Positions 11,749-38,121 of a stretch of DNA of 64,000 nt are shown piece after piece. A program made the position numbers and the translations under genes. Source of the DNA: Bacilli bacterium (GTDB taxonomy: Bacteria; Bacillota_I; Bacilli_A; RF39; UBA660). The notes below the pieces were generated by a model. It was not told where the DNA came from. It made no database searches and was given only the letters and a program-made list of their open reading frames with translations. The DNA lies in NCBI GenBank assembly GCA_017525035.1, contig JAFXTH010000023.1, positions 115,687-179,686 of the forward strand. The letters are read 5' to 3'. Each line of letters starts with the position of its first letter. Within the stretch, counting starts at the first letter, position 1.

Positions 11749-12369
11749 TTATAGAATATTACTTATAATATCATCTATTAATTTGATTAATCCATCAAAT
11801 AAACCTACTATGAAATCTATTATTATTTCAAAGAAGTTTTTAGATCTTTCCTCTTTTTCTTCTTCTTTCTTTGGTTCAACTTTTTCTTCTTCGTTTTTCC
11901 AAATACCTAACTTTTTCTCCTTAGCATATGAAAGAGCTGATTTCAATTCTTTTGCGTGTAAATAGTCATCATTTATATAAACAACTTTAGCATATCCTTG
12001 TTTTACTAAGTCTTCCTGCAATAGAACACCATCAATATATACCCACGCTTGAATTCTTCCATATTTATCTTCTCTTTCAATGTTAGGTTCATATTCTATT
12101 TTGATTTTTTTTGCACTTTTAAGTGCATCACATACATAATCTTTTACGAAACTATCATTTACTTCGTTTGTCTTTTCATCTATTATGTTTTCTGCTGCTT
12201 CTATACCCAAAAACTTTACTTTTATTTCAGTAAGTCTTAACATAAATCGAGCAGAATTACCATCTACGCAGTTACTTAACGATACTTCGTCAGAAGTAGA
12301 TTGGCTAGCCATTACATTAATAGGTAAAATGAGTAACATTATCATTAATATTATGGTTAACTTTTTCAT
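11749..12369 (-). CDS. Secreted thermonuclease (staphylococcal nuclease, SNase family)
   Basis: Signal peptide MKKLTIILMIMLLILPINVMA. SNase-like blocks VKFLGIEAAE, YGRIQAWVYIDGVLLQEDLVKQGYAKV and AKEKKLGIW. The start is trimmed to the ATG at 12369 after AGAGGTGAG. Confidence 0.75.
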   Translation of the reverse strand: MKKLTIILMIMLLILPINVMASQSTSDEVSLSNCVDGNSARFMLRLTEIKVKFLGIEAAENIIDEKTNEVNDSFVKDYVCDALKSAKKIKIEYEPNIEREDKYGRIQAWVYIDGVLLQEDLVKQGYAKVVYINDDYLHAKELKSALSYAKEKKLGIWKNEEEKVEPKKEEEKEERSKNFFEIIIDFIVGLFDGLIKLIDDIISNIL

Positions 12370-12392
12370 AATCTCACCTCTATTCATTTACA

Positions 12393-15149
12393 TTAGTCAT
12401 CGAAGAAATCATCAAAGAATTTTTCTTCAACTTCTTTGTCATCAAGTTTTATTGTACTAGTAGGCTTGAATCCACTTTGAGCCATTTTTTGTTGTTCGTA
12501 AGTCACTGTACTTTCTGTTGGCGCTTCATAATAGTTATTTGAAACAGTTTGAACTGGCTCTGTTGCAACCATTATTGGCTCTTCTTTTTCTATATTATTA
12601 ATCTGATTATTAGCTTCTATTTCTAGTCTTCTATTAATTTCGTCAGCTTTGTTTTCAACAAACTCTGCTTCTTTATCAATTAAATCGTTAGATAACTTTT
12701 CATTAACTTTTCTTTCAATGTCTTCATTTGACAAAATTAATTCTTCATCTAATAATTCAACATTATCTCTTTTATTGTATTCACTGATAGACTTTGGTTT
12801 TTGATGATTTGCAAGTCTATTGTATACTTTCTCTTCGTATGTTGGAACATTCTTCTTGCTCTCATATACTGGTGTATAATCATCATATTTTGGCACACTA
12901 GGTGTATAACTATCATATAAATCATCATATATATTTTTATCAACTGGAATAATATCTTCTTCATCATCTGCTTGTGGTTTGATATTAAAATTACTCAAAT
13001 CTATTGATGAAGGATAATCATATTCTTCTTTATTCTTAGTGTTATTGTATGTATTATCAACACTATTGTCAGTATGATTATAATTGTTAACAGTAATATT
13101 ATTAACTACATTTTCTTTTGGCGCACTTGCAGCTTGTGCTTTTTGTGCCGCTTTCTCAGCTTTCTTCTTCTTTGCCTCTTCCTCTTCTCTTTCAATTTCA
13201 GCAAGTTTTTCATCAATTTTCTTAACTAAATCATTAACTGAAATTTCAGGTTGCTTTTTAGGCATAGAATCTTCAAAACTTGAAAAATCCTTACTACCAG
13301 TTGATGGTCTTTCTCCACCAAAAGATGATCCAAGAATTGTTGGTTTGCTTCCACCACTTACTTCGCTTGATGAACTGCTATTACTACTGCTGCTACTTCC
13401 ACCACCAATGCTTGCCATCATTTCATTTATTTTTTGATTTTTCTTTTCTTTAACATATTCTCTTATATCAAATATTTGAACTGGTCTTTTTTCTCTTACT
13501 GGGTAATCAATTTTAGGAGATTTTTCATTTCCCCAGTCTATTTTAAAATCAGGCACAAATGATGTCTTGAATGGACTTTTTCTCATTCTTAACAAGATAT
13601 GGTCGAATTGTTTCATTCTTTGTAAGTCACTTACTGTAACTAGTGGTGTTGAAGCTGTCTTATCATCTTTTTTAGACTTCTTCTCTCCACAAAGTTTACT
13701 TATTTCTTCTAGAGCTGCTAACTCTGTTGAAATTAAGTAAATAATGTTACCATAGTTACCTTTGATAGTTTCTGCATCGTCCTTACCATAAACTTTATTT
13801 AATTGTGCAAAGTTTTGGATAATCATTGTAAATCTTATTTGTCTTGAACGTGCTGCTGTAATCATTGTTGTAACGTCTTTTAATGGTGGCATGTTAGCAA
13901 ACTCATCTAGTAAGAAGTTTGTTCTACATGGTAATTTACCACCGTGTGCTTGAGCAACATCAATTAATGTTTCATATACTTGTTTAATAAAAATTGTTGC
14001 AAGTGAGTGATATGTTTTCTTTTCGTCTTGAATGATTATAAATACTGCAGTTGGTTGAGTACCAATTGAGTCAAGTTTAAAATCACTATAACTTAACATT
14101 TCAGATAAGTTTTCACGTGATGCGAACAATTTTACTTTTTGTTTAAATACAGAAATAATACCACCTTTTGTTTCACTAGGTGCCATTACTGTACCACTGG
14201 CATTAACGTATGCTGCACTAGATGGATCTTTAGTATTAAAGTATTCCTTAATATAAGTTGATCCACCGAATTTATCTTCACCAACAGTAGCAGTCATATT
14301 AATACTGTTGATATTTATCTTATCTTCTGTTGTATCTTCAAACATTGCAAGTGCAATACCAGAGAAATAGTCAGCTGCTGTTTTTTCCCAGAATGGATCG
14401 CTATTTGCATTTGTTTCATCATACAAAATATTTAATGCAAGGTCATCAAGTAACTCAATTGCTTTATCTTGATTTCCTTCTTTATAAAGTCTATATGGTA
14501 ATTCAAGTGGGTTCCAAGTATTACCATTTTGAGGATTACGGAAGTTTAATAACAAGATATTGTATCCTTTTTCTTTTAATAATCCTCCAGCTTTTTCAAA
14601 AATTTCACCTTTAGGGTCAGTAACAACTACAGACTCACCCTTTTTAGCTAAAACTTTAATTGTTGGTAAAATAGTATCTTGTGTTTTACCTGATCCAGTA
14701 GCACCCATAACTAATGTATGATACTCACCATTATCAACCCATAATTCTTTACCATTACTGATTAATGGTACTCCAGCATATTCTGATTTAGGATCAGATG
14801 CTACAACTCTTTTGATATTTGTATCATTTTTAATATCTTTTGGTTTAGACCAATCACTATAACCACCAGTGTTTCCATCACCAATTTTGAATCCTACTCC
14901 ACTTTCAAATTCAAAGAAATATGATTTAACACTTAAGAGTAATCCAAGAAGTGCAATGAAATATAAAATCAATGTAGCAGCAATTTTATCAGGATAAAAA
15001 GCTTCTATAGGATTTAAACCATAGAACTTACCTGTTGAAGATAGTACTGGAATATTAACTACTCCTAGTGCTACTATATATAATAAAAATATTGCAAATA
15101 TTAAGAATATTTTAATATCTCTTGCTGTTGCAACGAACTTAAATTTCAT
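12393..15149 (-). CDS. virD4: Type IV coupling protein (VirD4/TraG family) with about 345-aa low-complexity C-terminal tail
   Basis: Two N-terminal TM segments. Walker A VMGATGSGKTQ, then VVTDPKGEI and NTWNPLE. Walker B FLLDEFANM, then RSRQIRFTMIIQNFAQLNKVYG. The start is trimmed to the ATG at 15149. Confidence 0.9.
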   Translation of the reverse strand: MKFKFVATARDIKIFLIFAIFLLYIVALGVVNIPVLSSTGKFYGLNPIEAFYPDKIAATLILYFIALLGLLLSVKSYFFEFESGVGFKIGDGNTGGYSDWSKPKDIKNDTNIKRVVASDPKSEYAGVPLISNGKELWVDNGEYHTLVMGATGSGKTQDTILPTIKVLAKKGESVVVTDPKGEIFEKAGGLLKEKGYNILLLNFRNPQNGNTWNPLELPYRLYKEGNQDKAIELLDDLALNILYDETNANSDPFWEKTAADYFSGIALAMFEDTTEDKININSINMTATVGEDKFGGSTYIKEYFNTKDPSSAAYVNASGTVMAPSETKGGIISVFKQKVKLFASRENLSEMLSYSDFKLDSIGTQPTAVFIIIQDEKKTYHSLATIFIKQVYETLIDVAQAHGGKLPCRTNFLLDEFANMPPLKDVTTMITAARSRQIRFTMIIQNFAQLNKVYGKDDAETIKGNYGNIIYLISTELAALEEISKLCGEKKSKKDDKTASTPLVTVSDLQRMKQFDHILLRMRKSPFKTSFVPDFKIDWGNEKSPKIDYPVREKRPVQIFDIREYVKEKKNQKINEMMASIGGGSSSSSNSSSSSEVSGGSKPTILGSSFGGERPSTGSKDFSSFEDSMPKKQPEISVNDLVKKIDEKLAEIEREEEEAKKKKAEKAAQKAQAASAPKENVVNNITVNNYNHTDNSVDNTYNNTKNKEEYDYPSSIDLSNFNIKPQADDEEDIIPVDKNIYDDLYDSYTPSVPKYDDYTPVYESKKNVPTYEEKVYNRLANHQKPKSISEYNKRDNVELLDEELILSNEDIERKVNEKLSNDLIDKEAEFVENKADEINRRLEIEANNQINNIEKEEPIMVATEPVQTVSNNYYEAPTESTVTYEQQKMAQSGFKPTSTIKLDDKEVEEKFFDDFFDD

Positions 15150-15216
15150 AATAAACACTTCCTTAAACTCTTTTAATCATACCATAAAAGTCTTTATTTT
15201 TCAATAAAATGGCCTA

Positions 15217-15942
15217 TTATAGTCTGTTAATATTTTTCTTTTTAATAGACAATGAATAACTTATAAATGAGATACATAAAATTACTAATAATACAATTAA
15301 AAGTATAGTTATTTTAATCTTGCTGTTTTCTTCCTCTTGTGTATCACTAGATTTCTCTTTTGTATTAAGAGTTATATATAGTTTTTTACCCTTATTAGAT
15401 TTTTTTACGTTCCATGTATACTCATTTTCACCAGTTTTTTCAGCATTTGTCGTTAATACTTCATATTCCGTTTTTACCTTTATGTTAATATCATCTAATA
15501 TTTCATAATCGTTAAATATATTTTCTGGAATTTTCCCTTCTATAGTAAGCTTATTATCATCATAGAAAACTGAAAAAGCTGAAATATATTCATTTGCTAA
15601 CGTTGAATTTGCATAACTTTCAAACGTAAAGTCATCTGTTAGTATAAGCGCAATTTCATTATTGTCAACTATTCCATCAATTTTATAGTATTTGCAGTTT
15701 TCTGTGCATGCCTCATTAGAAAATACCATATCATAGTCTGAATAGATATTTTCACTACCTTTATACATAGTTACATAGTCTTGAAAACTCTTTCCATCTT
15801 CTTTTTTTTGATTTGCTCTTTCTATATCAGTTTCTTGAGCATCAAATGTTTCAATTATTTTATTATCTTTTATTTCAATTGTGTAATTAACAGTACATCC
15901 TGTCATAAAAATTGCTAATAATATTAATATTATTTTTTTCAT
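15217..15942 (-). CDS. Lipoprotein with C-terminal TM anchor, T4SS-associated, function unknown
   Basis: Lipobox LAIFMTGC and C-terminal hydrophobic segment ILLIVLLVILCISFISY. The start is trimmed to the ATG at 15942 after AGGTGA. Confidence 0.55.
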   Translation of the reverse strand: MKKIILILLAIFMTGCTVNYTIEIKDNKIIETFDAQETDIERANQKKEDGKSFQDYVTMYKGSENIYSDYDMVFSNEACTENCKYYKIDGIVDNNEIALILTDDFTFESYANSTLANEYISAFSVFYDDNKLTIEGKIPENIFNDYEILDDINIKVKTEYEVLTTNAEKTGENEYTWNVKKSNKGKKLYITLNTKEKSSDTQEEENSKIKITILLIVLLVILCISFISYSLSIKKKNINRL

Positions 15943-15950
15943 ATTATCAC

Positions 15951-18900
15951 CTACCAAGATAGACCATTTACATTACTTGAATTAGAATAGTAACCATCAA
16001 GTAATACTACTACGTAAGTTTTACTTCCGTTTTTCAATTCATTAAAGCTTATTTTTCTTGTCTTTCTTCCATTTTCTCCAATAGTAATACTACTATCATC
16101 TTTTCCAACAATCAACATAGCATGCTGTCCATCACCATTATTGTCGGAATATAGCACATCTCCTGGTTTTATTGCTGCTATTGCTTCATCTTTAGTAGAT
16201 ATTGAAGTTTCTGCACTATTGCTCATTACTTTAAATGTTCCAGAAGTTTGAATCCTTACTGCTCCTGGATAATAATTTGTATTAGTAAATGCTCCTGTCA
16301 TTGATCTAGCACCCGCAGATCCTTGACTACACATATTCATTCCACCATTGCAGAAAGACCATCTTACAAAGTTTGCACAATTAAGTCCTAATCTAACTGG
16401 TGGAGCGCATGTATCACATGTTCCTCCAACTTCTCCCCATCTACTATTAACACCTAACTTACCGTTTAAGTCTGCTTGTCCGATTTTTCCTCCAGAATGG
16501 TCATATGGATAAGTATAGCCACCAGTCATATCCATTGTACATTGCATTAGGCCAACACCTGCTGCAACAACACCGGCTCTTGTTCCATAACCAGCACTGT
16601 TTACTTTATCACCAATACACTTATTTAAATCTTCAATTGTATATCCCTTTGCTGCTAAAGCTTGCTTAAGTGTTGTATTAAGTGGAGATCCACCTATTAC
16701 GTCAGTGAATCCATTACCATCGAAATCACTATTACCACTACCAGTTGGTGTACTATCATTACTTTTATCTTTATCAAGTGAGTCTACTTTTTTACATTTT
16801 CCTATTGGTAATGAACTTCTTAATACCCTTAATTGAGCTGTTGGAAAGAATAGTCTTATTAAAGCATCTTGATCATATCCCATTGCTCCAAAGTAAGTTA
16901 ATCCATATTGGCTAGCTCCTCTTCCATGTCCACCATAAACATGATATGACCAACCATATTCTGTAACATATTGTTGAGTAGCTTCATCATATTTTTCTCT
17001 TGTGTATGTTTCTGTTTTCCAACATGGATATTCACTTGATTTACTAGGTGTTGTTTGAGCTGGATCTCCACCAGCCCATGATGGCTCAGTTGTCCAATCA
17101 GGTGCGTATCTAATATTCTTTCTGTTAATTATTTCATCATGTGGTCTTGAATCATTATTTCTAAAACATGGACAATACAAATATCTACTATTTGGGTCAA
17201 TGAATTCTTTTCCTGTTTTAGCTTTATATGCTTGTACATCTATTGGAAGGCTTTGTTGTCCTTCTGGTAAGTAATACCATTTCCCGCCATCTAATGTATT
17301 CTTAACAGGACAAAATGCATCATATTCTGTATGCCATATTTTATCACTTTGATAATCAGTTATAACAATTCCTCTTGTTGCTTCAACTGCTGCTGCTAGT
17401 CTTGGATACTTTTCTTTTGAATACTCTGGATTATAGTTTTGTCTATTTGAACTATTTTCAATTTCTCCTCTTCCATCAAGTCCAACATTTGCAATCGCCT
17501 CAGTTCTAGCAAGAATTGCAAAAGCCTTTAACGCTTCGTCATTCCCACTATTATATTCTGCTAACAATACTCCACCAAGATATTGATCTTCAAAATCAAT
17601 TTCAATGTGTTCAGGAAGACCAAATCTACTTTGTTTTTCTGGCGGATTATATACTCTTATATTTTCAATTTCATTATCAATTATCTTGTGAACATCATCT
17701 GGATAGTCACAGCTTTTTCTAATTGATAAATAATATGAGTAAATGTATTCTGCTGTACTTAAAATTTTTGGAAGGCTTTGTTCATATAATTTATCTTCAT
17801 CTTCTGTGTTTGCGTCCTTATCATATAAGTAATCTTTAAGATATGTAAATAAGAAGCCATCTCTATTAACTAAATTCCAATAGAATACACCACCACTATT
17901 TGGATCTTTTTCATATTCAACAGATCCATCCTTTTTTGCATATGCAATATATTTTCCTTCATCAAGAGATAATGTATAAACATTTTCTGGCAATCTATTA
18001 TCCTTTTGTGGGGCATCAGTACATACATAATTTTTCTCAGCTTTTTTCCTATCGTTATATCCAGTAAACCAACGCAAAGGATTTAACCATTCCCACCACT
18101 GTAGTTCTTCAACTTCATCATCATTATTGGCATATTGTTCCATAGTTTTTTCACTGCCACATTTACCTTTATTTGTGTATGTTAAAATCTGCATTTTGGA
18201 AAGAAGCTCTGCTTGATCTCCCATACTATCAACGAACTTTTCCCATGTTACATATTCACCATCATATTTATAACATAATGGTTCACCACAAGACTCTCCG
18301 TCAGTAATTTCAGAACTTTTAATAGGATAAATAATCCCGTTATCTATTGGTGCAAGAAGTGTTGCTAATATTATATACTGATCAACTTCAAGTTTATATG
18401 TATTACTTGTTTTCTTTACTGCAGCAGAAATTTCTTCATATAATCCTGGATAAGTTGCAAATATGTTTGTACCTGCGTCTTCATATTTATAATCTTCTGA
18501 TTCTACTGTTCCACCATTTTCGTTAGAATATATTTGTGTATCTGCATCTTTAAAAAGTATTACTATTACTAACACTAATAGTATTATTACGATTATTGGT
18601 AATAGATGTAATACTAGGAAAAAGATTGCTCTTTTTTTTGCTTGTTCTTTTTCAATTTCAACGATAACATTTTTAATACCAGCTGCTGCACTATCACCTT
18701 TTTCATAGGCATCTATATACTTTTGTCCTTTTTCAGTATCCAGTGCTTTCTCAATGGCATCACCTTTACCAGGCATATAAGTATTAATTCCTTTTTTTAT
18801 TCCTTCTGCTGTTTTGTTTTTATTTTGCTCTGCTCTTTTCTTTTTTAGTCTACCACTAAGAGACTCGGCATTACGAGATTCTTGCGAACTTGCAACACCC

Positions 18901-19448: not shown

Positions 19449-19457
19449 AGTACTATT

Positions 19458-21795: not shown

Positions 21796-22102
21796 AACTA
21801 CCACACCAACCTTTCCATATGTATTGTTGTCTATTTACAAAGTAAAAACTATATATTGCTTGTAGAAGTACCAGTACATTATGTTGATAAGGTATTGGCA
21901 TAACTAACAATATGCAAATTATTCCAGGTAACATCAGTAATATTGTTACTAATGTATCTGAAGCTGCATCTTGGAATGCAACCAACAATATAAACGATAT
22001 TAATAGTCCCACTGCAAATATTATCAAATCAATTCCTCTGAAATAACCAAATATTAGTTTCCCTCTATTGGCATTTGCGGGAATCAAATACTCATTATTC
22101 AT
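21776..22102 (-). CDS. PrgI/TcpE/VirB3-like small membrane protein
   Basis: 108 aa with two hydrophobic segments. The motif GKLIFGYFRGIDLIIFAVG and the position directly upstream of virB4 are typical of this family. Confidence 0.55.
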   Translation of the reverse strand: MNNEYLIPANANRGKLIFGYFRGIDLIIFAVGLLISFILLVAFQDAASDTLVTILLMLPGIICILLVMPIPYQHNVLVLLQAIYSFYFVNRQQYIWKGWCGSYGDSKK

Positions 22103-31349: not shown

Positions 31350-31377
31350 ATTTCCACCTCTAATTTTATTCGTTTAA

Positions 31378-32319
31378 TTATTCATTTATTGTTGTATTTG
31401 TATTTGTGTTAGTATTTGTATTTGTACTTGTATTTGTACTTGTATTTGTACTTGTATTTGTGTTTGTATTAGTATTTATATTAAAATCTAAATCTGTTAT
31501 TTCATCTGGTAATTCTGCTGCTAACTTAAGAACATAATCGCTTAGATATTGGCTTGAAACCTCTGATACTATTTCGTTATCTTTATTGCTAATATTTACA
31601 TTTGTTGGTACTGGTATAATATCGATTCTTGAGAACCCTCCAGTTTCATTAGCAACTGAATAGTTATTAATTGCATTAACTTTTCTTAATAATAAGTGTT
31701 GTTGTTCAGGTAGTGCAAAAATAATTACGTAAGGTATTCTTGTTTCATCTCCGCCTTCAAATACATTTCTTCCATCACTAGTTTTTACAGCTAAGATTTT
31801 AACATTTTGTAACAATTTACCAACTAAAGCCTTTCCATTATCTTTTGTAGACATATAAATATCTATATAGTTATTTGGAAGAATTGAGTTAGTATAACTT
31901 GTTAACATATTAACCGTTAAATAATATAAAGTATATCCAGTTGGAATATCATACAATGCTGAATCAGGTAATTCTTCTTTACTAGTTAATAACTCAGTAT
32001 AAAACATACTACCTGCAGGGATTGTAGCATTCATTTTTGTATATTTGTTAATAATTTGATTTTTATTTGAATAGTACTCAGTATTCAAAGCTCCTTTTGG
32101 AATATCTTTATATACAATCATGTCATCAGTTATTCTTGTTTTTGGATCAATTGTATATTTTGCAACTGGTAGTTGTACTGGTTTTGTTGCATTATTGATA
32201 CGTATGTTATAACCAATTAGCAATACTGCTACAGCTAAAACACCGCATACTGCAGTTACAAATCCTTTACTTTTTACCATTCTTGTTAATTTTGATGCAT
32301 TTAAATTATTACCGTTCAT
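31378..32319 (-). CDS. cpaB: CpaB/RcpC-like Flp pilus assembly protein (SAF domain) with C-terminal Thr-Asn/Thr-Ser repeat
   Basis: N-terminal TM segment FVTAVCGVLAVAVLLIGY. SAF-like block VQLPVAKYTIDPKTRITDDMIVYKDIPKGAL...IPAGSMF. The tail is NTNTNTNTSTNTSTNTSTNTNTNTNTNT. Confidence 0.6.
   Translation of the reverse strand: MNGNNLNASKLTRMVKSKGFVTAVCGVLAVAVLLIGYNIRINNATKPVQLPVAKYTIDPKTRITDDMIVYKDIPKGALNTEYYSNKNQIINKYTKMNATIPAGSMFYTELLTSKEELPDSALYDIPTGYTLYYLTVNMLTSYTNSILPNNYIDIYMSTKDNGKALVGKLLQNVKILAVKTSDGRNVFEGGDETRIPYVIIFALPEQQHLLLRKVNAINNYSVANETGGFSRIDIIPVPTNVNISNKDNEIVSEVSSQYLSDYVLKLAAELPDEITDLDFNINTNTNTNTSTNTSTNTSTNTNTNTNTNTTINE
31392..31478 (-). repeat. In-frame hexanucleotide microsatellite (gtattt/gtactt/gtgttt units) encoding the (TN/TS)n tail of the CpaB-like protein
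   Basis: Directly visible tandem 6-nt and 12-nt units, e.g. gtatttgtactt repeated three times. Confidence 0.85.
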
Positions 32320-33005: not shown

Positions 33006-33020
33006 CTTACCACTCTCCCA

Positions 33021-36000
33021 TTATTTTTTATATTCTTCTGGATTACTAAACAAGCTAGCAAAGCCTCCAAATTCAACATTACTATCATGTATGAAACTGC
33101 TTATATATTCTCCCGAATAATCCTTTTCTAAACTAGTTGAAGTTGTGAACTCTGTGTATGCTTCTTTTTTATCGTTTTCTTTCTTTGATTTTGTATCTTT
33201 TCTTATTTTTTCTATATCTCCCGGTCCTAAATCAATAACGTATTCTGGTTTTTGATTTGAATTAACACCAGTTATACTTGTTGTATCATCATCGTCGTGC
33301 TTAATATAATCAGTAAATCCAACCCAGTTTGCACCAACTTCTCTTTTTCCTTTATCAAATGGCGCTTCACTATCATATGAATTAGGGAATGGATTGTAAT
33401 TATTTATTGATCTATATAAGTATTCATCTCCACCACTGCAAATAGGTTTATAACATCTATTAATGCACTGTCTTGATTCATTAGTATTGTTTCCATAAAT
33501 TTGATTACAATATGTAGTTACATTATTTATTGCGTTTTCACTGCACTCTGTAATAATAGTACATTTCATACAACTATTAACACAATCATCTATTGTTTCA
33601 TGATGGTGTACTTCATCAGCTAAATATGTTGTACAATACTTTCTTACTTCCTTATATTGATGATCTTGCTTTGCATTCCATACTTCACAATTATATTTAT
33701 CACCTGTTGGTGGTTGGCTTATATCGTAAACACAACATGCATTTCCATTACCACGCTCAACAATTGCCAACAATGATAACTTTTTATAATTTTTATATGT
33801 AAATTCATAGTTACCACTATTAACTACATTTTTATATTCTTTTATTGTAAATGTTTCATTTGAACCATACATCGCTCTAATAGATACCTTTTTGTGTGGT
33901 ACGTTAACTGTTAACTTATATTTAGATTTTGTATTAGATCCACCATTTGGTGTGATTTTACAAACACTATCACTACAATTTGCAAAAGTTACTGATACAT
34001 GGTTTACTGCTTTTTGTCCTTTTTTAGATTTTGCCACACAATAAACGTAATGTGTTTCTACTCCAGTTTTTGATGGCTTTAAAGTTTTGGCATCTATTTT
34101 GCCTGAGTATTCTTCTAATTCTTCATCCGTTGGATCAATTAAGATTCCATATGTGATTATTTCATCAGCATAATCTCCAGTTCCACCTAAATTCATCTTA
34201 ATATTTGTGATTTCGGCTTTTATTCCATCCATACCGAAATAGATTCCATCTTCTGCTACTACATCTCCAACTTCTGTTATTCTAATACTACATTCTGGAG
34301 GTTCAGGCTTACATCCTTCGATTTCACAAACTATATTACCTGCGCTAGACTTTTCAGGATAATAACTTGTATCATCACCAGATGGCATTATTACAGCCTT
34401 TCCTACTATCTCAAATCCATATCCTGATTGATTTAACGCCTCAAATGACGTGAAATATAAGTTTTGTCCAGGTACAGTTTCTGTACGTCCATCTACTGTT
34501 AGTTGTTTACATTTTCCATCTTCATCTGCCTTTGTTATTGTTGCATTTCCATCTGTTGATACGCAATATTTTGGCATTTTATATTCTAAATCTACATTAC
34601 TAGTTGTTGTATATGTATTTGAACTATATGATCCTACTGTAGATAACCTATTATATACGCTTTTAGAAAATACATTTTTTGTTTCTGATTGCGTACTAGA
34701 TGGTTCTTTTTTAGATTCTTCTATTAAATCTACTTTTACATCCTTTATTTTCTTATCAGATAAAGTTTCTGTTACATCAGCAGTTACAGTTGTTCTGGAT
34801 TGCCCTTTTGAATCTACTAATGAATAGTTTGTTGATTCCCATTGAATATTTGTTTCAGCATCTGCAGCATCTATTAACGATGAAATAGACGGAGAAATTT
34901 CTCCAACATATCCATTTTCTTTAGCAGCGTTATACTTACCTAAAACTTGAATAAGTAATTTTCTAGGTGTGCTTTCTTTAATACATTCTCCTGCACTGTT
35001 TTCTTGCACACAAATTTTTTCTTTTGAATGGTATATTGAATAAGCAAATTGCCAGCTATCCATATCAAACCATACATAACATTTCTTTGAACTAGCCACT
35101 TTAACATCATAGTTTACCCCAGTTCCTGGGACAATCTTTTTATATGCTAAGTTTTCAAACTCAACTTCGTTATATTCTATACATGCTACATTTGCGAACG
35201 TTCTTTGATCTACTGGAGTGTTTTCCGGATCACTATAACATGTAGCATTTCTTGGTGCTGAATTTTGAATATCCTCGATTTCTTCTTCAACATATGGTTC
35301 GCAAGTTTTTTCATCACATTTTATATTTGTTGTATCACTTGAATTTTTTACCTTAGAAAGCGCATTTTTATATTCCTGTGCTTCTGGTGTACTAGGCAAA
35401 TTACTGCAATTATTAGGTTGATAATTTACATGACATTTATTAATCATACAATCTTTCTTTTGTGCAGTTACTGGCCATCCATCTTGATATCCGATAAAGT
35501 TATCACAGAAGTTTTCAGCACAACGTAATAGTTCATTTCCTGTCTTATTCTCACAAACAATAGGACAACTGTTTACATGTCTTACCCAGAAGAAAGCTAA
35601 TCCTAATGTGTATTTATGTGATTGCCCTGCTGCTACTGAAATACTACTAACATCTTGTGTCCATAATTTATATTTATTTGTACTTCCAAGACCTGCAATA
35701 GCTGTTTTTGCACTTGGACCTACGTAGTAATCATATACTTGATTTCCATTTGCATCAACTTTTGGCGTTACACCATCTGATTGATATACCTCGTTAGCAG
35801 TTCCTGTACTTATTCCTTCATATAATGCTTGATACATTTTTAATACAGCTGTATCTCTTCCTCTTTTTATTGAAGAACCATAGGTATATGTATTTGTGTA
35901 CAAGTATGCTTTGAAGCTTATATTATATCCATTACAATAGTCTGTTGCCCTTGACCATCTTCCAGCTTCTATCCTACATGTTGTTTGTGTTTTATCATAT

Positions 36001-37280
36001 CTAGTATATGATGTACATGTTTCACCAGAGCATCCGTCTGACTCTTCACATTTAGCCTTTGTAGTAAATCCATACTTACCTGTTGTAGTACCACATTTCC
36101 AACGGGCATATTGACTACAGTTGGATGTATAACCAAAATTATTGTATTTTGTATAATCAACATTTGGAGGATTTTTTGATTCACAAACTATAGCTATTTT
36201 ATCTTCATTACAATAAGTAGTATTATAAGTTACTTCGTCTTTCCATTCACCAGAAAAACAATAATATTCTTGTGAATGTGTATAGCTACCTCCCTCAGTT
36301 TGTGTTCCTGTACACTTATATCCCTTAACTGAATCCAAAGTACAACTATTAGCTATGTATCCATTTAAACTACATTTATAATCTGCCGCAGGTGTAGTAC
36401 CATTATCCCATTCTTTTAGTAGTTTAGATGTTGTTTTACAATTGTTACCTTGACACGTTTTAGAATTAGCATCTGCTGTCGCTTTTTGTGGTTGCCTAAT
36501 AGCTGTATCAAATACAATGTAATATTTTTCAAGTTCTTTTAGGTTTTTTTCGTTAGTTACAAGTTCAGGATAATCAAATAAATTTGCTAAATCTCTAATT
36601 GTTTTGCTATTTTTCCCGTCATCCTTGTATTCACCCATTAAGTTATTTACAAATACAGCATAACCACTTGCATCACTACTTATGTTTCTCTTTATTAATT
36701 TTATTCGTTGGTTTTTATTAGCGGCATTTTCATAAAAAGCTCCACCAGATGTTCCTCTTGGATAAAAAGTTATCTTGTTTCTAGGATAACTAGCTACATT
36801 TTCTGATTTATAATTGTAATTAATTAATGCCGTACACGTGCTGTTGGAGTACCATCCACCTGTTCCTGTTGATAGCGTATATAACCATTGTGGGTGTCCC
36901 TGTCCTTGCCATCCTTTAGGTGTGTCAGGATATAGTTCTTCAGGATCATTCAAACTCATATGTGCTTCGTTTAGAAAACCTCCAGAATAGAATAATACTG
37001 GAACACCAACATATTCTTCTTTTTTTGTTTCATAATCATATTTTACCAAGTTTACATAAACTCCAGCTCCACTAAAACAAAGGGCATCTTCACCACATTT
37101 TTTAGCATCCAGTGGTGTAGAACTTGAATGTGTTAAGCCATATGTAAAACCACCAAGAGCTTCTCCTACTATTTCTTTTAGTGTTTGTTCAGCAGGAGGC
37201 GTCATATCCGCAAAAACTACTATAGGCATTAAAAATGATAAAATTATAGTTAAACATATTATTTTTTTAATTAGTTTCAT
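33021..37280 (-). CDS. 1419-aa secreted cysteine-rich protein (candidate adhesin or pilus-tip component)
   Basis: Signal peptide MKLIKKIICLTIILSFLMPIVVFA. I count about 53 Cys by eye, often in pairs or clusters such as KCEESDGCSGETC, CEIEGCKPEPPEC and DDCVNSCMKCTIITEC. There is no LPXTG motif and no C-terminal TM segment. Confidence 0.7.
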   Translation of the reverse strand: MKLIKKIICLTIILSFLMPIVVFADMTPPAEQTLKEIVGEALGGFTYGLTHSSSTPLDAKKCGEDALCFSGAGVYVNLVKYDYETKKEEYVGVPVLFYSGGFLNEAHMSLNDPEELYPDTPKGWQGQGHPQWLYTLSTGTGGWYSNSTCTALINYNYKSENVASYPRNKITFYPRGTSGGAFYENAANKNQRIKLIKRNISSDASGYAVFVNNLMGEYKDDGKNSKTIRDLANLFDYPELVTNEKNLKELEKYYIVFDTAIRQPQKATADANSKTCQGNNCKTTSKLLKEWDNGTTPAADYKCSLNGYIANSCTLDSVKGYKCTGTQTEGGSYTHSQEYYCFSGEWKDEVTYNTTYCNEDKIAIVCESKNPPNVDYTKYNNFGYTSNCSQYARWKCGTTTGKYGFTTKAKCEESDGCSGETCTSYTRYDKTQTTCRIEAGRWSRATDYCNGYNISFKAYLYTNTYTYGSSIKRGRDTAVLKMYQALYEGISTGTANEVYQSDGVTPKVDANGNQVYDYYVGPSAKTAIAGLGSTNKYKLWTQDVSSISVAAGQSHKYTLGLAFFWVRHVNSCPIVCENKTGNELLRCAENFCDNFIGYQDGWPVTAQKKDCMINKCHVNYQPNNCSNLPSTPEAQEYKNALSKVKNSSDTTNIKCDEKTCEPYVEEEIEDIQNSAPRNATCYSDPENTPVDQRTFANVACIEYNEVEFENLAYKKIVPGTGVNYDVKVASSKKCYVWFDMDSWQFAYSIYHSKEKICVQENSAGECIKESTPRKLLIQVLGKYNAAKENGYVGEISPSISSLIDAADAETNIQWESTNYSLVDSKGQSRTTVTADVTETLSDKKIKDVKVDLIEESKKEPSSTQSETKNVFSKSVYNRLSTVGSYSSNTYTTTSNVDLEYKMPKYCVSTDGNATITKADEDGKCKQLTVDGRTETVPGQNLYFTSFEALNQSGYGFEIVGKAVIMPSGDDTSYYPEKSSAGNIVCEIEGCKPEPPECSIRITEVGDVVAEDGIYFGMDGIKAEITNIKMNLGGTGDYADEIITYGILIDPTDEELEEYSGKIDAKTLKPSKTGVETHYVYCVAKSKKGQKAVNHVSVTFANCSDSVCKITPNGGSNTKSKYKLTVNVPHKKVSIRAMYGSNETFTIKEYKNVVNSGNYEFTYKNYKKLSLLAIVERGNGNACCVYDISQPPTGDKYNCEVWNAKQDHQYKEVRKYCTTYLADEVHHHETIDDCVNSCMKCTIITECSENAINNVTTYCNQIYGNNTNESRQCINRCYKPICSGGDEYLYRSINNYNPFPNSYDSEAPFDKGKREVGANWVGFTDYIKHDDDDTTSITGVNSNQKPEYVIDLGPGDIEKIRKDTKSKKENDKKEAYTEFTTSTSLEKDYSGEYISSFIHDSNVEFGGFASLFSNPEEYKK

Positions 37281-37289
37281 AATTTCCTC

Positions 37290-37985
37290 CTATTTAATGT
37301 CTATTTTTGCTCTTTTCTTCTTCTTTTGATATTTCTTAAATCCGTAGTAACCGGCTCCACCAATTACTAGAACCGTTAATGTACCAGTTATAGCTATATT
37401 ATCTTTATAAAAATTAATTAGTTTTTCAAAGAAAGTTTCTTCTTCTGGTTCTAAATCTTTTGGTTCTTCTTTTTCTAAACTCTTTTTATACAATTCTAGA
37501 GCTTGTAAAAAGTCGTCTAAATTTCTAATTTCCTTTTGATACCATTTGTTACACAAAGGAAATTCTTCATATTCAATACATTCATCTCTTTCACTATATA
37601 TGTTATACTTTGGTATTTTTAAACTTTTTGTATAAAGGAGTTCTCCAGCACAAGCATAACCATTAGCCGCATATATTTTAAATTCATATGTGCTGCCACC
37701 ATCGAAGATTGATGCAAACTCGTAAATGTCTTTGCCCTCTACATACATCATATGTATGTTGCCATATTCAACAACTATACCAGGTTGTAAGTTTGCCATA
37801 GTTACTGTGAAATAGTAATCGCTTCCTTCTTCTTTATGTAAATCATAATTAAAAGTTACTTTATAAGCCTTTGATTTTAATTGGCTATAATATGTTTTTG
37901 TACATGCTTTTCTTGCTGCGTTGGCAGTTGGAACAAACATAACAAAAAGCAAAAAAACAATAATAAATAAATATACTTTTTTCAT
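37290..37985 (-). CDS. Secreted protein with C-terminal TM anchor and poly-Lys tail, function unknown
   Basis: Signal peptide ending TANA, C-terminal segment ITGTLTVLVIGGAGYYGF followed by KKYQKKKKRAK. It is the first gene of the cluster. Confidence 0.55.
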   Translation of the reverse strand: MKKVYLFIIVFLLFVMFVPTANAARKACTKTYYSQLKSKAYKVTFNYDLHKEEGSDYYFTVTMANLQPGIVVEYGNIHMMYVEGKDIYEFASIFDGGSTYEFKIYAANGYACAGELLYTKSLKIPKYNIYSERDECIEYEEFPLCNKWYQKEIRNLDDFLQALELYKKSLEKEEPKDLEPEEETFFEKLINFYKDNIAITGTLTVLVIGGAGYYGFKKYQKKKKRAKIDIK

Positions 37986-38121
37986 TTTGCTCTCCTATTT
38001 TATTTTATATATATAAGTGTACTACATTTCAAATCCTTTTGCTAGTATTATTCAAAATGTTTGTAAGAAAAATTATAGAGATTTATAAAAAAATATGTTA
38101 TTATTCTTAGTGAGGTGTTTT

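What the first reader, a model, noticed from the sequence alone, without database searches (positions are those of the whole stretch)
11749..38032. Relaxase-less chimera of a Tad/Flp pilus machine and a Gram-positive T4SS, embedded between core genes
About 26 kb of strictly co-oriented genes read as follows on the minus strand:
- anchored 231-aa protein, 1419-aa Cys-rich secreted protein, 174-aa anchored protein
- CpaB-like, CpaF ATPase, TadB-like, TadC-like
- Flp-like pilin, TadE-like, TadZ-like
- VirB2-like, 394-aa anchored protein, VirB6-like, VirB3-like
- VirB4 (as two ORFs), SpoIID+NlpC/P60 hydrolase, lipoprotein
- VirD4 coupling protein, secreted thermonuclease

The Walker motifs of CpaF, VirB4 and VirD4 are intact. 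I can find no relaxase (no HxH/Tyr-type motif ORF), integrase, recombinase, replication gene, partition gene or prepilin peptidase anywhere in the 64 kb. The flanks are ordinary core genes: holA on one side, and a thioredoxin lipoprotein and dagK on the other. Composition looks uniform.

A type IVc pilus module fused in line with a MPF-FATA-like T4SS is not an architecture I recognise from described ICEs, conjugative plasmids or Tad loci. Precedents suggest possible logic. The R64 thin pilus is a type IV pilus that assists conjugation. H. pylori ComB and the archaeal Ced/Ted systems are T4SS-derived DNA importers that lack relaxases.

The cluster could therefore be one of three things:
- a domesticated DNA uptake/exchange machine
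- an adhesion/secretion device
- a decayed ICE
Basis: partly seen in the sequence, partly recalled or inferred. Interest (0 to 1): 0.9.

Follow-up and report, generated by a model that had tools for sequence, protein, structure and literature searches.

The report
Chromosomal relaxase-less conjugation-type machine with pilus
Hundreds of uncultured, low-GC gut Bacilli species carry in their chromosome an intact, strongly conserved copy of a Gram-positive conjugation apparatus (a type IV secretion system plus a Tad-like pilus module) with no recognisable relaxase, integrase or repeat boundaries, so it looks like a domesticated cell-contact machine rather than a mobile element.

Summary
Twenty co-oriented genes (11749-37985, minus strand) encode two modules:
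- A Gram-positive T4SS: VirB2-like pilin, VirB6, VirB3/PrgI, split VirB4, wall hydrolase, VirD4.
- A Tad-like module: DUF5411, CpaB/RcpC, a CpaF/VirB11-family ATPase, two polytopic membrane proteins, and small pilin-like proteins.

I found no relaxase, integrase or flanking repeats in the 64 kb.

The claim that the architecture is unprecedented does not hold. Conjugative plasmids of the Bacillus cereus group (pBMB67, pAW63/pXO2/pBT9727) carry homologous genes in nearly the same order. There the ATPase was simply called "VirB11". The two-ORF VirB4 is the normal TrsD/TrsE arrangement and is split in 91 of 91 relatives.

What appears new is the context. The cluster sits in a conserved chromosomal neighbourhood in at least several hundred species-level MAG genomes. 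ORFs are intact, dN/dS is 0.04-0.23, and GC3 matches the flanks. A decayed ICE is therefore rejected.

The closest analogues are:
- the chromosomal, relaxase-less, VirB2-bearing T4SS of Patescibacteria
- the archaeal Ced+Ups pair
- relaxase-less Mycoplasma ICEs

Best guess: a domesticated contact-dependent transfer machine, most likely for DNA. The substrate is not shown.

The parts
37290..37985 (-). 231-aa protein with a signal peptide and a C-terminal anchor. It is the first gene of the cluster and is variable or duplicated in relatives.
   Evidence: ORF. Weak CD1107-like Pfam hit. Orthologues at 23-48% identity, sometimes in two copies. Absent from the nearest relative, L001.
33021..37280 (-). 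1419-aa secreted Cys-rich protein (53 Cys). Putative variable adhesin or tip protein.
   Evidence: No Pfam or NCBIfam hit. Absent in L001, and replaced by other 680-1260-aa proteins elsewhere. The counterpart in L163 carries Flg_new and faint Cys-rich-repeat hits. pAW63 and pBT9727 have a 1416/1426-aa surface protein at the same relative position (PMC1196294).
32481..33005 (-). DUF5411 protein with an N-terminal hydrophobic segment (leader MKES..). Minor-pilin-like.
   Evidence: Pfam DUF5411 at 7.8e-37. Conserved leader. hhalign against the pBMB67 134-aa protein upstream of its SAF/CpaB gene gives E 6e-5, probability 64%.
31378..32319 (-). CpaB/RcpC-like pilus assembly protein with a (TN/TS)n tail.
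   Evidence: RcpC in 25 of 25 orthologues (best 1.4e-10) and SAF in 12. TIGR03177 at 2.8e-10. 27% identity to the pBMB67 SAF protein, 1e-18.
29442..31349 (-). CpaF/VirB11-family secretion ATPase with intact Walker, Asp and His boxes and a PQ-rich variable tail.
   Evidence: T2SSE at 4e-25. Equidistant from VirB11, CpaF and FlaI in the PDB. NCBIfam VirB11 at 5e-30 and TadA-conjugal at 2e-27. The core is 74-98% identical in the 80 best of 592 related genome stretches.
28503..29402 (-). Polytopic membrane protein, TadB/GspF-like platform candidate.
   Evidence: No Pfam or PDB sequence hit. AF2 model at pLDDT 81.8. The best-probability Foldseek hits are the EpsF and OutF cytoplasmic domains: probability 0.80 and 0.77, TM(target) 0.54 and 0.69, E>1. 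23% identity to the pBMB67 305-aa protein, 2e-7.
27712..28503 (-). Second polytopic membrane protein, TadC-like candidate.
   Evidence: No family hit. Homologue of the pBMB67 244-aa protein, which matches 78 of the related loci. 51-92% identity among relatives.
27441..27644 (-). 67-aa pilin-like protein with the conserved leader MKEATGELNMTLVTIIAIAAV.
   Evidence: Alignment. An 11/12 promoter-like site lies just upstream at 27707-27679. dN/dS 0.32.
26961..27389 (-). 142-aa minor-pilin-like protein (leader MRESxGG). Often duplicated in relatives.
25952..26929 (-). 325-aa cytoplasmic protein of unknown family. 'TadZ-like' at motif level only. It stays with the T4SS half when the Tad-like genes are absent.
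   Evidence: No Pfam or PDB hit. hhalign to the pBMB67 AAA ATPase P-loop region is weak (probability 8%). Retained in L091, L093-L095.
25550..25891 (-). VirB2-like T4SS pilin.
   Evidence: Pfam T4SS_pilin in 24 of 25 orthologues, best 5.3e-9. A 12/12 consensus promoter-like site lies at 25945-25916. Two or three paralogues in L028, L031, L033 and L042.
24279..25463 (-). 394-aa membrane-anchored, Cys-containing extracellular protein of unknown family.
   Evidence: Orthologues at 23-80% identity, sometimes relocated to after the T4CP gene.
22121..24190 (-). VirB6/TrbL-like polytopic channel protein with a long Gly/Ala-rich tail.
   Evidence: TrbL_4 at 3.8e-8, above the gathering score. NCBIfam Mycoplasma ICE Mbov_0396/MMCAP2_0566 at 1e-8 and pLS20_p028 at 0.0016.
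21776..22102 (-). VirB3/PrgI-like two-TM protein.
   Evidence: hhalign to the pBMB67 PrgI-family protein gives E 1.5e-4, probability 51%, with a shared YLIPxN motif. Lies immediately upstream of VirB4 in all loci.
21244..21804 (-). TrsD-like ORF, equivalent to the VirB4 N-terminal domain.
   Evidence: NCBIfam VirB4_plasma positions 101-276 at 6.6e-16. A separate ORF in 91 of 91 loci, mostly with a 4-nt overlap. Homologous to the pBMB67 227-aa ORF. TraC-like (weak) in L163.
19458..21272 (-). VirB4 ATPase (TrsE-like).
   Evidence: PDB 4AG5 at 1e-57. NCBIfam Mbov_0397 at 1.3e-106 and CD1110 at 4e-53. 73-92% identity among relatives.
15951..19325 (-). VirB1-type bifunctional wall hydrolase: SpoIID lytic transglycosylase plus an NlpC/P60-like C-terminal domain.
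   Evidence: SpoIID at 3.3e-11. The C-terminal Cys/His motif and module swapping with M23-like domains in relatives are shown.
15217..15957 (-). 246-aa lipoprotein with a C-terminal TM segment. It sits at the position of VirB8-like proteins, but this was not tested.
   Evidence: Orthologues at 24-34% identity between the hydrolase and the T4CP.
12393..15158 (-). VirD4-type coupling protein of the CD1115 family, with a long low-complexity tail.
   Evidence: PF02534 at 9e-59 and TraG-D_C. NCBIfam CD1115 at 294.8 bits, above the cut-off of 250. Present in 32 of 35 loci that have at least 8 kb downstream of VirB4.
11749..12387 (-). Secreted or anchored staphylococcal-type nuclease. An accessory gene, present only in some relatives.
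   Evidence: SNase at 8e-13. NCBIfam thermonuclease at 2e-13. Found after the T4CP in L084, L100 and L152 only.
38095..38535 (+). Thioredoxin-like lipoprotein (lipobox LLSGC, active site CSHC). Probably a disulfide helper linked to the system.
   Evidence: It travels with the 5' end of the cluster in many loci and lies inside the cluster in L020.
7409..9064 (-). 551-aa polytopic membrane protein. A possible accessory component outside the reported coordinates.
   Evidence: Its homologue lies directly upstream of, and co-oriented with, the cluster in 24 distant loci, and downstream of it in the window and L089.

Best explanation
**What it is (shown).** The cluster is a chromosomally fixed, vertically inherited descendant of a Gram-positive (MPF-FATA type) conjugation apparatus. 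It already included, as on pBMB67 and pAW63/pXO2-type plasmids, a Tad-like pilus module:
- Pilus module: DUF5411, CpaB, a CpaF/VirB11-family ATPase, two platform-like membrane proteins, and pilin-like proteins.
- Channel module: VirB2-like pilin, VirB6, VirB3, TrsD+VirB4, wall hydrolase, and VirD4 coupling protein.

The genes that make such a machine a mobile element are not detectable. The remaining genes are intact and under purifying selection across hundreds of species.

**How it most likely works (inferred):**
1. The ATPase and platform assemble a thin pilus of the 67-aa pilin and the minor pilins.
2. The variable Cys-rich surface proteins, folded with help from the adjacent thioredoxin lipoprotein, bind a partner cell.
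3. The hydrolase opens the cell wall.
4. VirB4/TrsD, VirB3, VirB6 and the VirB2-like pilin form the channel.
5. VirD4 feeds a cytoplasmic substrate into the channel.

**Most likely substrate (inferred).** DNA, meaning relaxase-independent chromosomal DNA exchange between related cells. This would resemble Mycoplasma ICE-driven chromosomal transfer or the archaeal Ups+Ced pair. In some lineages the secreted nuclease would process extracellular DNA.
For: **Component identities:**

**Homology and shared order with conjugative plasmids**:
- T4CP 31% identity, 4e-58
- VirB4 30%, 4e-86
- TrsD-like 1e-13
- CpaB 1e-18
- ATPase 1e-28
- the two membrane proteins 2e-7 and 5e-6

**No mobility genes:**
- The pBMB67 MobP3 relaxase has no match in the window or in 160 related loci.
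- No relaxase, integrase or transposase Pfam hit among the 50 long ORFs scanned in the 64 kb.
- No att-like repeats.

**Vertical inheritance:**
- 592 related stretches in a collection holding one genome per species.
- Flanking genes are conserved in several lineages: dagK and Trx upstream; bPH, m406 and m551 downstream.
- GC3 equals that of the flanks.

**Functionality:**
- ORFs are intact in about all loci.
- dN/dS against L001 is 0.04-0.23 for core genes, compared with 0.04 for dagK.
- VirB4 at 73-92% and the ATPase core at 74-98% identity are more conserved than dagK at 55-70% in the same loci.

**One unit:**
- 52 of 56 loci with at least 5.5 kb downstream of the ATPase carry the VirB2-like gene.
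- 31 of 37 loci with at least 9 kb upstream of VirB4 carry the Tad-like genes.
- 32 of 35 carry the T4CP.

**Why DNA is the preferred substrate:**
- The T4CP passes the curated cut-off of a conjugation-specific family and stays in the operon.
- The best-matching NCBIfam models for VirB4 and VirB6 are those of Mycoplasma ICEs.
- Those ICEs move ICE and chromosomal DNA, and no relaxase is listed among their identified conjugation homologues (PMC12857230, section 21).
- The Ced system works together with Ups type IV pili without a relaxase (PMC9905601).
Against: - No substrate has been shown, and nothing in the operon is a recognisable DNA-processing enzyme.
- A relaxase could sit elsewhere in the genome. 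I saw only 64 kb plus 10-kb flanks of related loci.
- ATPases this conserved suggest a function under constant strong selection. That fits the growth-essential Patescibacteria T4SS better than occasional gene exchange (PMC12857230, section 22).
- TadB/TadC identity rests on weak structural and positional evidence.
- No prepilin peptidase was found.
- The nuclease is present in only a few lineages.
- A minority of loci carry the T4SS half without the Tad-like genes at that site (L091, L093-L095).
Confidence: 0.45

Rival explanations
1. A Patescibacteria-like lifestyle machine. The T4SS and pilus are used for obligate contact with another cell, bacterial or host. They would deliver or take up proteins, signals or nutrients rather than DNA, in a genome-reduced, auxotrophic lineage.
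For: **Features shared with the Patescibacteria T4SS** (PMC12102498; PMC12857230, section 22):
- chromosomal location
- no relaxase
- MPF-FATA ancestry
- a TrsD-like ORF
- VirB2-like PF18895 pilins
- hydrolases after virB4

**Other support:**
- Pilin gene arrays in L028, L031, L033 and L042.
- Extreme conservation of the ATPases, above that of the housekeeping gene dagK.
- Variable Cys-rich adhesin-like proteins, and pilins with higher dN/dS, suggesting partner recognition.
- Contigs of up to 1.3 Mb carry the system, and record titles read 'Mollicutes/Tenericutes/Bacilli' MAGs.
Against: - In Patescibacteria the T4CP is mostly unlinked from virB4 and is dispensable in S. epibionticum (PMC12102498). 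Here it is a conserved operon member of a conjugation-specific family.
- No effector-like gene was recognised.
- An epibiotic or parasitic lifestyle is not documented for this lineage in the papers I could search.
Confidence: 0.3
2. A DNA-uptake (competence-like) importer in the manner of H. pylori ComB or archaeal Ced. The pilus captures DNA, the nuclease processes it, and the T4SS imports it for recombination or nucleotide salvage.
For: - No relaxase was detected.
- A secreted SNase ends the operon in the window and in L084, L100 and L152.
- Precedents exist in ComB and Ced (PMC12857230, section 20; PMC9905601) and in Tad-dependent DNA uptake in Micrococcus and Liberibacter (PMC8467076, PMC8513845, titles and abstracts only).
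Against: - ComB lacks a VirD4 homologue (PMC12857230 treats it among systems lacking VirD4). Here VirD4 is strongly conserved.
- The nuclease is absent from most relatives.
- No ComEC-like channel lies in the cluster.
Confidence: 0.12
3. Two independent systems that merely lie side by side: a Tad-like adhesion pilus and a separate T4SS.
For: - Internal promoter-like sites lie before the flp-like and VirB2-like genes.
- L091 and L093-L095 carry the T4SS half without the CpaB-to-TadE genes at that site, and L083 carries a divergent ATPase.
Against: - The two halves are collinear and co-oriented in the great majority of loci across wide divergence.
- The same pairing occurs on conjugative plasmids of another order of Bacilli.
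- There are no terminators between the halves.
Confidence: 0.08
4. A still-mobile or decaying ICE whose relaxase, recombinase and ends are too divergent to recognise or lie outside the window.
For: - Every recognisable relative of the gene set outside this lineage is on a conjugative plasmid or ICE.
- Total GC of the cluster is about 4-5 points above the flanks.
- Mycoplasma ICEs also have no relaxase among their identified conjugation homologues (PMC12857230).
Against: - The chromosomal neighbours are the same in lineages whose dagK is only 55-70% identical.
- No integrase, transposase or att repeats were found.
- GC3 is identical to the flanks.
- ORFs are intact and dN/dS is low everywhere.
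- The only cytoplasmic unknown in the cluster, the 325-aa protein, has no invariant His residues.
Confidence: 0.05

Closest known systems
Conjugation apparatus of Bacillus cereus-group plasmids (pBMB67; pAW63/pXO2/pBT9727 family)
   Same: **Homologous proteins, shown by tblastn and hhalign against pBMB67**:
- T4CP of the CD1115 family
- PrgI/VirB3
- a separate TrsD-like ORF
- VirB4
- SAF/CpaB
- a DUF5411-like protein
- the CpaF/VirB11-family ATPase
- two downstream membrane proteins

Against pBT9727, only the T4CP, VirB4 and the ATPase give significant tblastn matches.

**Same function at the same position, taken from the plasmid annotations rather than a detected match:**
- TrbL/VirB6 (pBMB67 TrbL found no tblastn match)
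- a large, roughly 1400-aa surface protein upstream
- a VirB2-family gene in pBT9727 (no tblastn match)
- a bifunctional hydrolase after VirB4
   Different: - The plasmids carry a relaxase (MobP3/MOBP typing) plus replication and partition genes. The window cluster is chromosomal, with none of these detected.
- Identities are only 23-31%.
- The T4CP gene lies at the end of the operon instead of before virB6.
- In the literature the ATPase is called VirB11, and no pilus role has been described (PMC1196294, PMC9673590).
Chromosomal T4SS of Patescibacteria (CPR)
   Same: - Chromosomal and relaxase-less, with MPF-FATA ancestry.
- A TrsD-like ORF, VirB3/PrgI and VirB6.
- VirB2-like PF18895 pilins, sometimes in arrays.
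- Hydrolases next to virB4.
- Lineage-wide conservation in genome-reduced, uncultured bacteria (PMC12102498; PMC12857230, section 22).
   Different: - A different phylum: Bacillota-type MAGs.
- The T4CP is inside the operon and conserved.
- A Tad-like ATPase/CpaB/platform module is fused in line, whereas Patescibacteria have separate type IV pilus loci.
- Whether the VirB4s are sister groups was not tested.
- Essentiality is unknown.
Archaeal Ced/Ted DNA-import systems working with Ups type IV pili
   Same: - A T4SS-derived, chromosomal machine with no relaxase and a VirB2-like pilin.
- It is functionally coupled to a type-IV-filament pilus that mediates cell-cell contact (PMC9905601).
   Different: - The archaeal genes sit in separate loci.
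- No VirD4-type T4CP is described.
- Sequence relationship is remote: the CedD model hits only at 8.5e-9, far below its cut-off.
Mycoplasma ICEs (Mbov_0396/Mbov_0397; CDS16/CDS17) and mycoplasma chromosomal transfer
   Same: - The best-scoring NCBIfam families for VirB4 (1e-106), its N-terminal ORF and the VirB6-like protein are the Mycoplasma ICE models.
- No relaxase is listed among the identified conjugation homologues of these ICEs.
- They transfer chromosomal DNA (PMC12857230, section 21).
   Different: - Mycoplasma ICEs are mobile, using a DDE recombinase, and lack VirB1- and VirB8-like proteins and any pilus module.
- Their VirB4 is a single protein.
- Scores are below the curated cut-offs (357 against 590).
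T4P-assisted conjugation systems (R64/TP114 thin pilus; PAPI-1)
   Same: A type-IV-filament pilus encoded together with T4SS ATPases and used for mating-pair formation or transfer (PMC9045228; PMC12857230, section 21).
   Different: - They occur in Gram-negative hosts.
- The pili are type IVb rather than Tad-like.
- The elements are mobile and carry relaxases.
- No homology beyond the ATPase superfamily was tested.

Membership tests
MPF-FATA (Gram-positive) type IV secretion system | VirB4-family ATPase | tested here: met
   PDB 4AG5 at 1e-57. NCBIfam Mbov_0397 at 1.3e-106, CD1110 at 4e-53 and VirB4_CagE at 7e-25. Walker A (GTSGSGKS) and Walker B (VLMVDEAH) are visible.
MPF-FATA (Gram-positive) type IV secretion system | VirD4-type coupling protein | tested here: met
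   PF02534 at 9e-59. NCBIfam conju_CD1115 at 294.8 bits, above the curated cut-off of 250.
MPF-FATA (Gram-positive) type IV secretion system | VirB6-like polytopic channel protein | tested here: met
   Pfam TrbL_4 at 33.5 bits, above the gathering score of 27. Mycoplasma ICE and pLS20_p028 models also hit.
MPF-FATA (Gram-positive) type IV secretion system | VirB3/PrgI-like protein next to VirB4 | tested here: inconclusive
   No Pfam or NCBIfam hit. hhalign to the pBMB67 PrgI-family protein gives E 1.5e-4, probability 51%. Position and two-TM topology fit.
MPF-FATA (Gram-positive) type IV secretion system | VirB1-type cell-wall hydrolase | tested here: met
   The SpoIID domain is above the gathering score (44.1 against 23). 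The NlpC/P60-like Cys/His motif is seen at motif level only.
MPF-FATA (Gram-positive) type IV secretion system | VirB8-like (NTF2-fold) protein | not tested
Conjugative element (plasmid or ICE) | MOB relaxase | tested here: not met
   No relaxase Pfam family among the 50 long ORFs scanned in the 64 kb. pBMB67 MobP3 has no tblastn hit in the window or in 160 related loci. The rest of the genome was not seen.
Conjugative element (plasmid or ICE) | Integrase or recombinase and att direct repeats delimiting the element | tested here: not met
   No integrase or transposase hits. Only low-complexity chance repeats. tRNA genes lie 4 kb or more from the ends.
Conjugative element (plasmid or ICE) | Patchy distribution, variable insertion site, foreign composition | tested here: not met
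   The neighbours are conserved across divergent species. GC3 equals that of the flanks.
Tad/Flp (type IVc) pilus | TadA/CpaF secretion ATPase | tested here: inconclusive
   Clearly T2SSE family. However, it scores equally against VirB11, CpaF and FlaI in the PDB (61.2, 60.8 and 58.4 bits), and VirB11 is the top NCBIfam hit.
Tad/Flp (type IVc) pilus | TadB/TadC (GspF-family) platform proteins | tested here: inconclusive
   No T2SSF hit in the window protein, in 25 orthologues or in distant representatives. No PDB sequence hit. The AF2 model's best-probability Foldseek matches are GspF cytoplasmic domains, but with E>1.
Tad/Flp (type IVc) pilus | CpaB/RcpC | tested here: met
   25 of 25 orthologues hit RcpC (best 1.4e-10) and 12 hit SAF. 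The window protein itself is below the gathering score (23.5 against 28.8). TIGR03177 at 2.8e-10.
Tad/Flp (type IVc) pilus | Flp pilin with a G/XXXXEY processing motif | tested here: not met
   The 67-aa protein has a different, strongly conserved leader (MKEATGELNMT...) and gives no Flp Pfam hit.
Tad/Flp (type IVc) pilus | Dedicated prepilin peptidase (TadV/CpaA, A24 family) | tested here: not met
   None was found in the window by Pfam on the long ORFs or by a motif scan. One could lie elsewhere in the genome.
Tad/Flp (type IVc) pilus | TadZ/CpaE ParA-like protein | tested here: inconclusive
   The 325-aa protein has no consistent Pfam or PDB hit. Only a weak alignment of a P-loop-like stretch to the pBMB67 AAA ATPase, probability 8%.
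Patescibacteria-type domesticated T4SS | Chromosomal, relaxase-less, with a TrsD-like ORF and PF18895 VirB2-like pilins | tested here: met
   The features are as listed in PMC12102498.
Patescibacteria-type domesticated T4SS | VirB4 falls inside the Patescibacteria VirB4 clade | not tested
A VirB4 phylogeny is needed.
Patescibacteria-type domesticated T4SS | Required for growth on a host cell | not testable with these tools
   This needs cultivation and genetics.

The most novel reading that the evidence does not exclude
A large radiation of uncultured, genome-reduced gut Bacilli has fixed a relaxase-less T4SS fused to a Tad-like pilus as a core, possibly essential, organelle. This would be a second, independent or ancestrally linked case of the Patescibacteria situation, but inside Bacillota. 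It would imply that these abundant gut bacteria live by obligate cell-to-cell contact, either epibiosis or parasitism on other cells or obligatory DNA exchange. It would also mean VirB2-type pili are made by ordinary Gram-positive lineages.
Probability: 0.3. Interest if true: 0.85.

Novelty: new variant of a known kind. Interest (0 to 1): 0.66.

Why it matters
**Relevance to the T4SS field.** A recent review states that VirB2-type pilins are absent from Gram-positive T4SSs, with Patescibacteria the single exception. It also says nearly all Gram-positive T4SSs are conjugation systems of mobile elements (PMC12857230).

Three things here bear on that:
- A chromosomal, relaxase-less system that carries VirB2-like pilins.
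- Its conservation across several hundred species-level genomes of gut Bacilli-type MAGs.
- Plasmid homologues showing that the 'VirB11' of pXO2-type plasmids belongs to a CpaB/ATPase/platform pilus module.

**What it would give, if the system is functional:**
- A handle on the lifestyle of a major uncultured gut lineage.
- A possible evolutionary bridge between Gram-positive conjugation systems and the Patescibacteria T4SS.
- A testable model for how Gram-positive T4SSs make contact with target cells.

Tried and rejected
**TadB/TadC identity by sequence.** This gave nothing:
- Pfam on the window proteins and on 25 orthologues found no T2SSF hit.
- PDB profile searches found nothing.
- A search of 1.84 billion representative proteins found only 263 relatives, and none of the full-length distant ones has a T2SSF hit.

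**Structure prediction.**
- The first AF2 job, on a shallow alignment, was unusable (pLDDT 53.6).

**Other searches with no result:**
- PDB profile searches for the 325-aa protein and the CpaB-like protein.
- A PDB search for the C-terminal half of the hydrolase.
- Rfam on the whole window: only 3 tRNAs and no riboswitch.
- Repeat search for att sites: only AT-rich chance matches.
- Literature searches for this system in RF39 or related orders, or for DUF5411: nothing relevant.

**Ideas considered and rejected:**
- VirB4 is a frameshifted pseudogene. Rejected because the split is conserved in 91 of 91 loci.
- The cluster is a recent horizontal acquisition. Rejected on GC3 and conserved synteny.

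**Left undone.** I did not establish the GTDB order of the host. 'RF39-like' is only my inference from record titles and genome size.

Full report
**1. What is in the sequence**

The window is about 27% GC. Positions 11749-37985 hold 20 co-oriented minus-strand ORFs with short gaps or overlaps. No intergenic minus-strand terminator-like site lies inside the run. A bidirectional terminator-like hairpin at 38534-38560 closes the upstream dagK and Trx genes.

T4SS half:
- VirD4: PF02534 at 9e-59; NCBIfam CD1115 family at 294.8 bits against a cut-off of 250.
- VirB4: PDB 4AG5 at 1e-57; NCBIfam Mycoplasma-ICE VirB4 at 1e-106.
- A 186-aa ORF matching positions 101-276 of that same VirB4 model.
- TrbL_4/VirB6.
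- A T4SS_pilin protein, matched by 24 of 25 orthologues.
- A SpoIID hydrolase. Its C-terminus carries an NlpC/P60-like Cys/His motif, which is replaced by an M23-like module in some relatives.
- A lipoprotein.
- A staphylococcal-type nuclease.

Pilus half:
- A T2SSE ATPase.
- A CpaB/RcpC protein, matched by 25 of 25 orthologues.
- A DUF5411 protein.
- Two polytopic membrane proteins.
- Small proteins sharing an M[KR]E[SA]..G leader.

The ATPase cannot be assigned to CpaF rather than VirB11 by sequence.

The 'TadB/TadC' label rests on two things. An AF2 model (pLDDT 81.8) has as its best-probability Foldseek matches the cytoplasmic domains of EpsF and OutF, but with E>1. The proteins also have homologues at the equivalent plasmid position.

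'TadZ' is unsupported. The pilin does not carry the Flp motif. No prepilin peptidase is in the window.

**2. No mobility genes, and core flanks**

Pfam scans of the 50 long ORFs submitted from across the 64 kb found no relaxase, integrase, transposase, replication or partition gene. Several shorter ORFs were not scanned.

The flanks hold holA, cysS, relA, dagK, typA, tRNAs and similar genes. No att-like direct repeats bound the cluster.

Total GC is higher in the cluster (0.316 against 0.263 and 0.277). GC3 is indistinguishable from the flanking housekeeping genes. The difference therefore reflects protein composition, not foreign origin.

**3. Relatives**

The ATPase core has thousands of near-identical relatives in metagenomes. 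It matches 592 stretches in a collection that holds one genome per species. The best 80 are 74-98% identical. All are MAGs, mostly titled uncultured Bacilli, Mollicutes, Tenericutes or Erysipelotrichaceae (a few under other labels such as Muribaculaceae or Clostridium), from human and animal guts.

I compared the window proteins with 160 related loci: 80 centred on the ATPase and 80 on VirB4.

The two halves are collinear almost everywhere the 10-kb flanks reach:
- 52 of 56 loci have the VirB2-like gene downstream of the pilus genes.
- 31 of 37 have the pilus genes upstream of VirB4.
- 32 of 35 have VirD4 downstream.

Some lineages have extra VirB2-like paralogues and larger inserts, which push VirB4 beyond the flank.

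Chromosomal neighbours recur in lineages whose dagK is only 55-70% identical: dagK and the Trx lipoprotein upstream; bPH, m406 and m551 downstream.

ORFs are intact in about all loci. dN/dS against the nearest relative is 0.04-0.23 for core genes, compared with 0.04 for dagK, and 0.32-0.44 for the two pilins. VirB4 (73-92%) and the ATPase core are more conserved than dagK.

This excludes a decaying ICE. It argues for vertical inheritance of a working machine.

The large Cys-rich protein and its 231-aa partner are the variable part. They are absent in the closest relative, and duplicated or replaced elsewhere.

**4. The split VirB4**

VirB4 is encoded as two ORFs in different frames in 91 of 91 loci, mostly with a 4-nt overlap.

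A separate ORF homologous to the VirB4 N-terminus (TrsD) is a known trait of the pGO1 subclass of MPF-FATA systems. It is the most abundant T4SS component in Patescibacteria (PMC12102498, section 13). pBMB67 has one as well. The split is therefore normal, not damage.

**5. The architecture has plasmid precedents**

tblastn of VirB4 against PLSDB gave about 30% identity to conjugative plasmids of the Bacillus cereus group.

pBMB67 encodes, all on one strand:
- MobP3 relaxase, VirD4 (CD1115 family), TrbL, PrgI, a 227-aa ORF and VirB4;
- then, further along, an SLH protein, an 851-aa protein, a 134-aa protein, a SAF-domain protein, an AAA ATPase, a T2SS/T4P/T4SS ATPase, proteins of 305, 244 and 89 aa, and DUF4320.

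Window proteins match these in order. Reciprocally, the plasmid's SAF protein, ATPase, two membrane proteins and TrsD-like ORF hit 40-109 of the related loci. Its relaxase hits none.

Profile comparisons also link DUF5411 to the 134-aa protein (E 6e-5) and the 108-aa protein to PrgI (E 1.5e-4).

pBT9727, pAW63 and pXO2 show the same layout, including a roughly 1420-aa surface protein upstream and an annotated TrbC/VirB2-family gene (PMC1196294). In that literature the ATPase is just 'VirB11', and no pilus function is discussed (PMC1196294, PMC9673590).

The pairing is an under-annotated but existing type of Gram-positive conjugation apparatus.

**6. What is new, and the closest analogues**

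I found no description of this chromosomal system in RF39, RFN20 or related Bacilli, or under DUF5411 or PF18895, in the searchable library.

The closest analogue is the Patescibacteria T4SS. It is chromosomal, relaxase-less and MPF-FATA-derived, with TrsD and VirB2-like pilin arrays. It is essential for epibiotic growth (PMC12102498; PMC12857230, section 22).

That review states that VirB2 is otherwise absent from Gram-positive T4SSs. The present cluster and pBT9727 contradict this at the annotation level.

Other analogues:
- Ced working with Ups pili (PMC9905601).
- Mycoplasma ICEs with chromosomal transfer and no relaxase among their identified conjugation homologues (PMC12857230, section 21). 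Their VirB4 and VirB6 models are the best NCBIfam matches here.
- T4P-assisted conjugation in R64, TP114 and PAPI-1.

**7. Mechanism**

Shown: the gene set, its homology to conjugation machines, the lack of detectable mobility genes, vertical inheritance and purifying selection.

Inferred:
1. The ATPase, platform proteins and CpaB assemble a pilus from the 67-aa pilin and the minor pilins.
2. Variable Cys-rich adhesins bind a partner cell. The adjacent CSHC thioredoxin lipoprotein helps fold them. That gene travels with the cluster and lies inside it in L020.
3. The hydrolase breaches the wall.
4. The VirB2/3/4/6 channel, with VirD4, moves a cytoplasmic substrate.

I favour DNA as the substrate, as relaxase-independent chromosomal exchange. 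The reasons are that the T4CP belongs to a conjugation-specific family and is retained in the operon, and that the nearest characterised T4SS relatives move DNA without an identified relaxase.

The very high conservation of the ATPases is better explained by a Patescibacteria-like, lifestyle-critical contact machine. I rank that second, and close behind.

A pure DNA importer and 'two unrelated neighbours' are less likely. A cryptic ICE is unlikely.

**8. Verdict**

This is a new variant of known kinds: a domesticated T4SS, and a pXO-type T4SS with a pilus module. It has real interest for T4SS biology and for understanding uncultured gut Bacilli. It is not a categorically new architecture.

Noticed in passing
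window 38095-38535 (+): A thioredoxin-like lipoprotein (lipobox LLSGC, active site CSHC) is conserved next to the 5' end of the cluster in many relatives and sits inside the cluster in L020. It is probably a disulfide helper for the Cys-rich exoproteins; the 1419-aa protein has 53 Cys.
   Followed up: partly
window 7409-9064 (-); L043, L060, L074 and 21 other loci: A 551-aa polytopic membrane protein lies downstream of the cluster here and in L089. In 24 more distant loci it lies directly upstream of the cluster and co-oriented with it, which suggests a functional link beyond the reported coordinates.
   Followed up: partly
window 25916-25945 and 27679-27707 (-): A perfect 12/12 sigma-70-like promoter match lies immediately upstream of the VirB2-like gene, and an 11/12 match lies upstream of the 67-aa pilin gene. 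These are possible internal promoters for the two pilins. Promoter-like matches are common in this AT-rich DNA.
   Followed up: no
L028, L031, L033, L042 (about 14.5-16 kb in each locus): The VirB2-like gene is present in two or three tandem paralogues followed by a protein of about 875 aa. This resembles the VirB2-like pilin arrays described in Patescibacteria.
   Followed up: partly
L091, L093, L094, L095; L083: Some relatives carry dagK, Trx, the 325-aa gene, the VirB2-like gene and the rest of the T4SS through to the T4CP, but without the CpaB-to-minor-pilin genes at that site. L083 has a divergent ATPase (38% identity) instead. Whether the pilus genes lie elsewhere in those genomes is unknown.
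   Followed up: no
window 15951-19325 and orthologues (L086, L090, L094, L095, L097): The hydrolase keeps its SpoIID domain, but its C-terminal module switches between NlpC/P60-like and M23 (LytM)-like among relatives. L084 has two hydrolase paralogues.
   Followed up: partly
window 31372-31503 and 29442-30030: A 12-nt tandem repeat encodes a (TN/TS)n tail on the CpaB-like protein. The ATPase carries a long PQ-rich low-complexity C-terminal tail whose length varies between relatives.
   Followed up: no
window 1430-3502 (-): A C39-peptidase ABC transporter (bacteriocin or peptide exporter type), next to small ORFs of unknown function.
   Followed up: no
window 50374-51617: Two divergently oriented ORFs (148 aa on the minus strand, 237 aa on the plus strand) with no Pfam hit sit among housekeeping genes. 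Their function is unknown.
   Followed up: no
L161 (pBMB67) and L162 (pBT9727): In these published plasmids, the genes around the so-called VirB11 ATPase form a Tad-like module that the literature I read does not discuss. The module comprises a SAF/CpaB protein, an AAA ATPase, two membrane proteins, small proteins and DUF4320. pBT9727 also has an annotated TrbC/VirB2-family gene, contrary to the general statement that Gram-positive T4SSs lack VirB2.
   Followed up: partly
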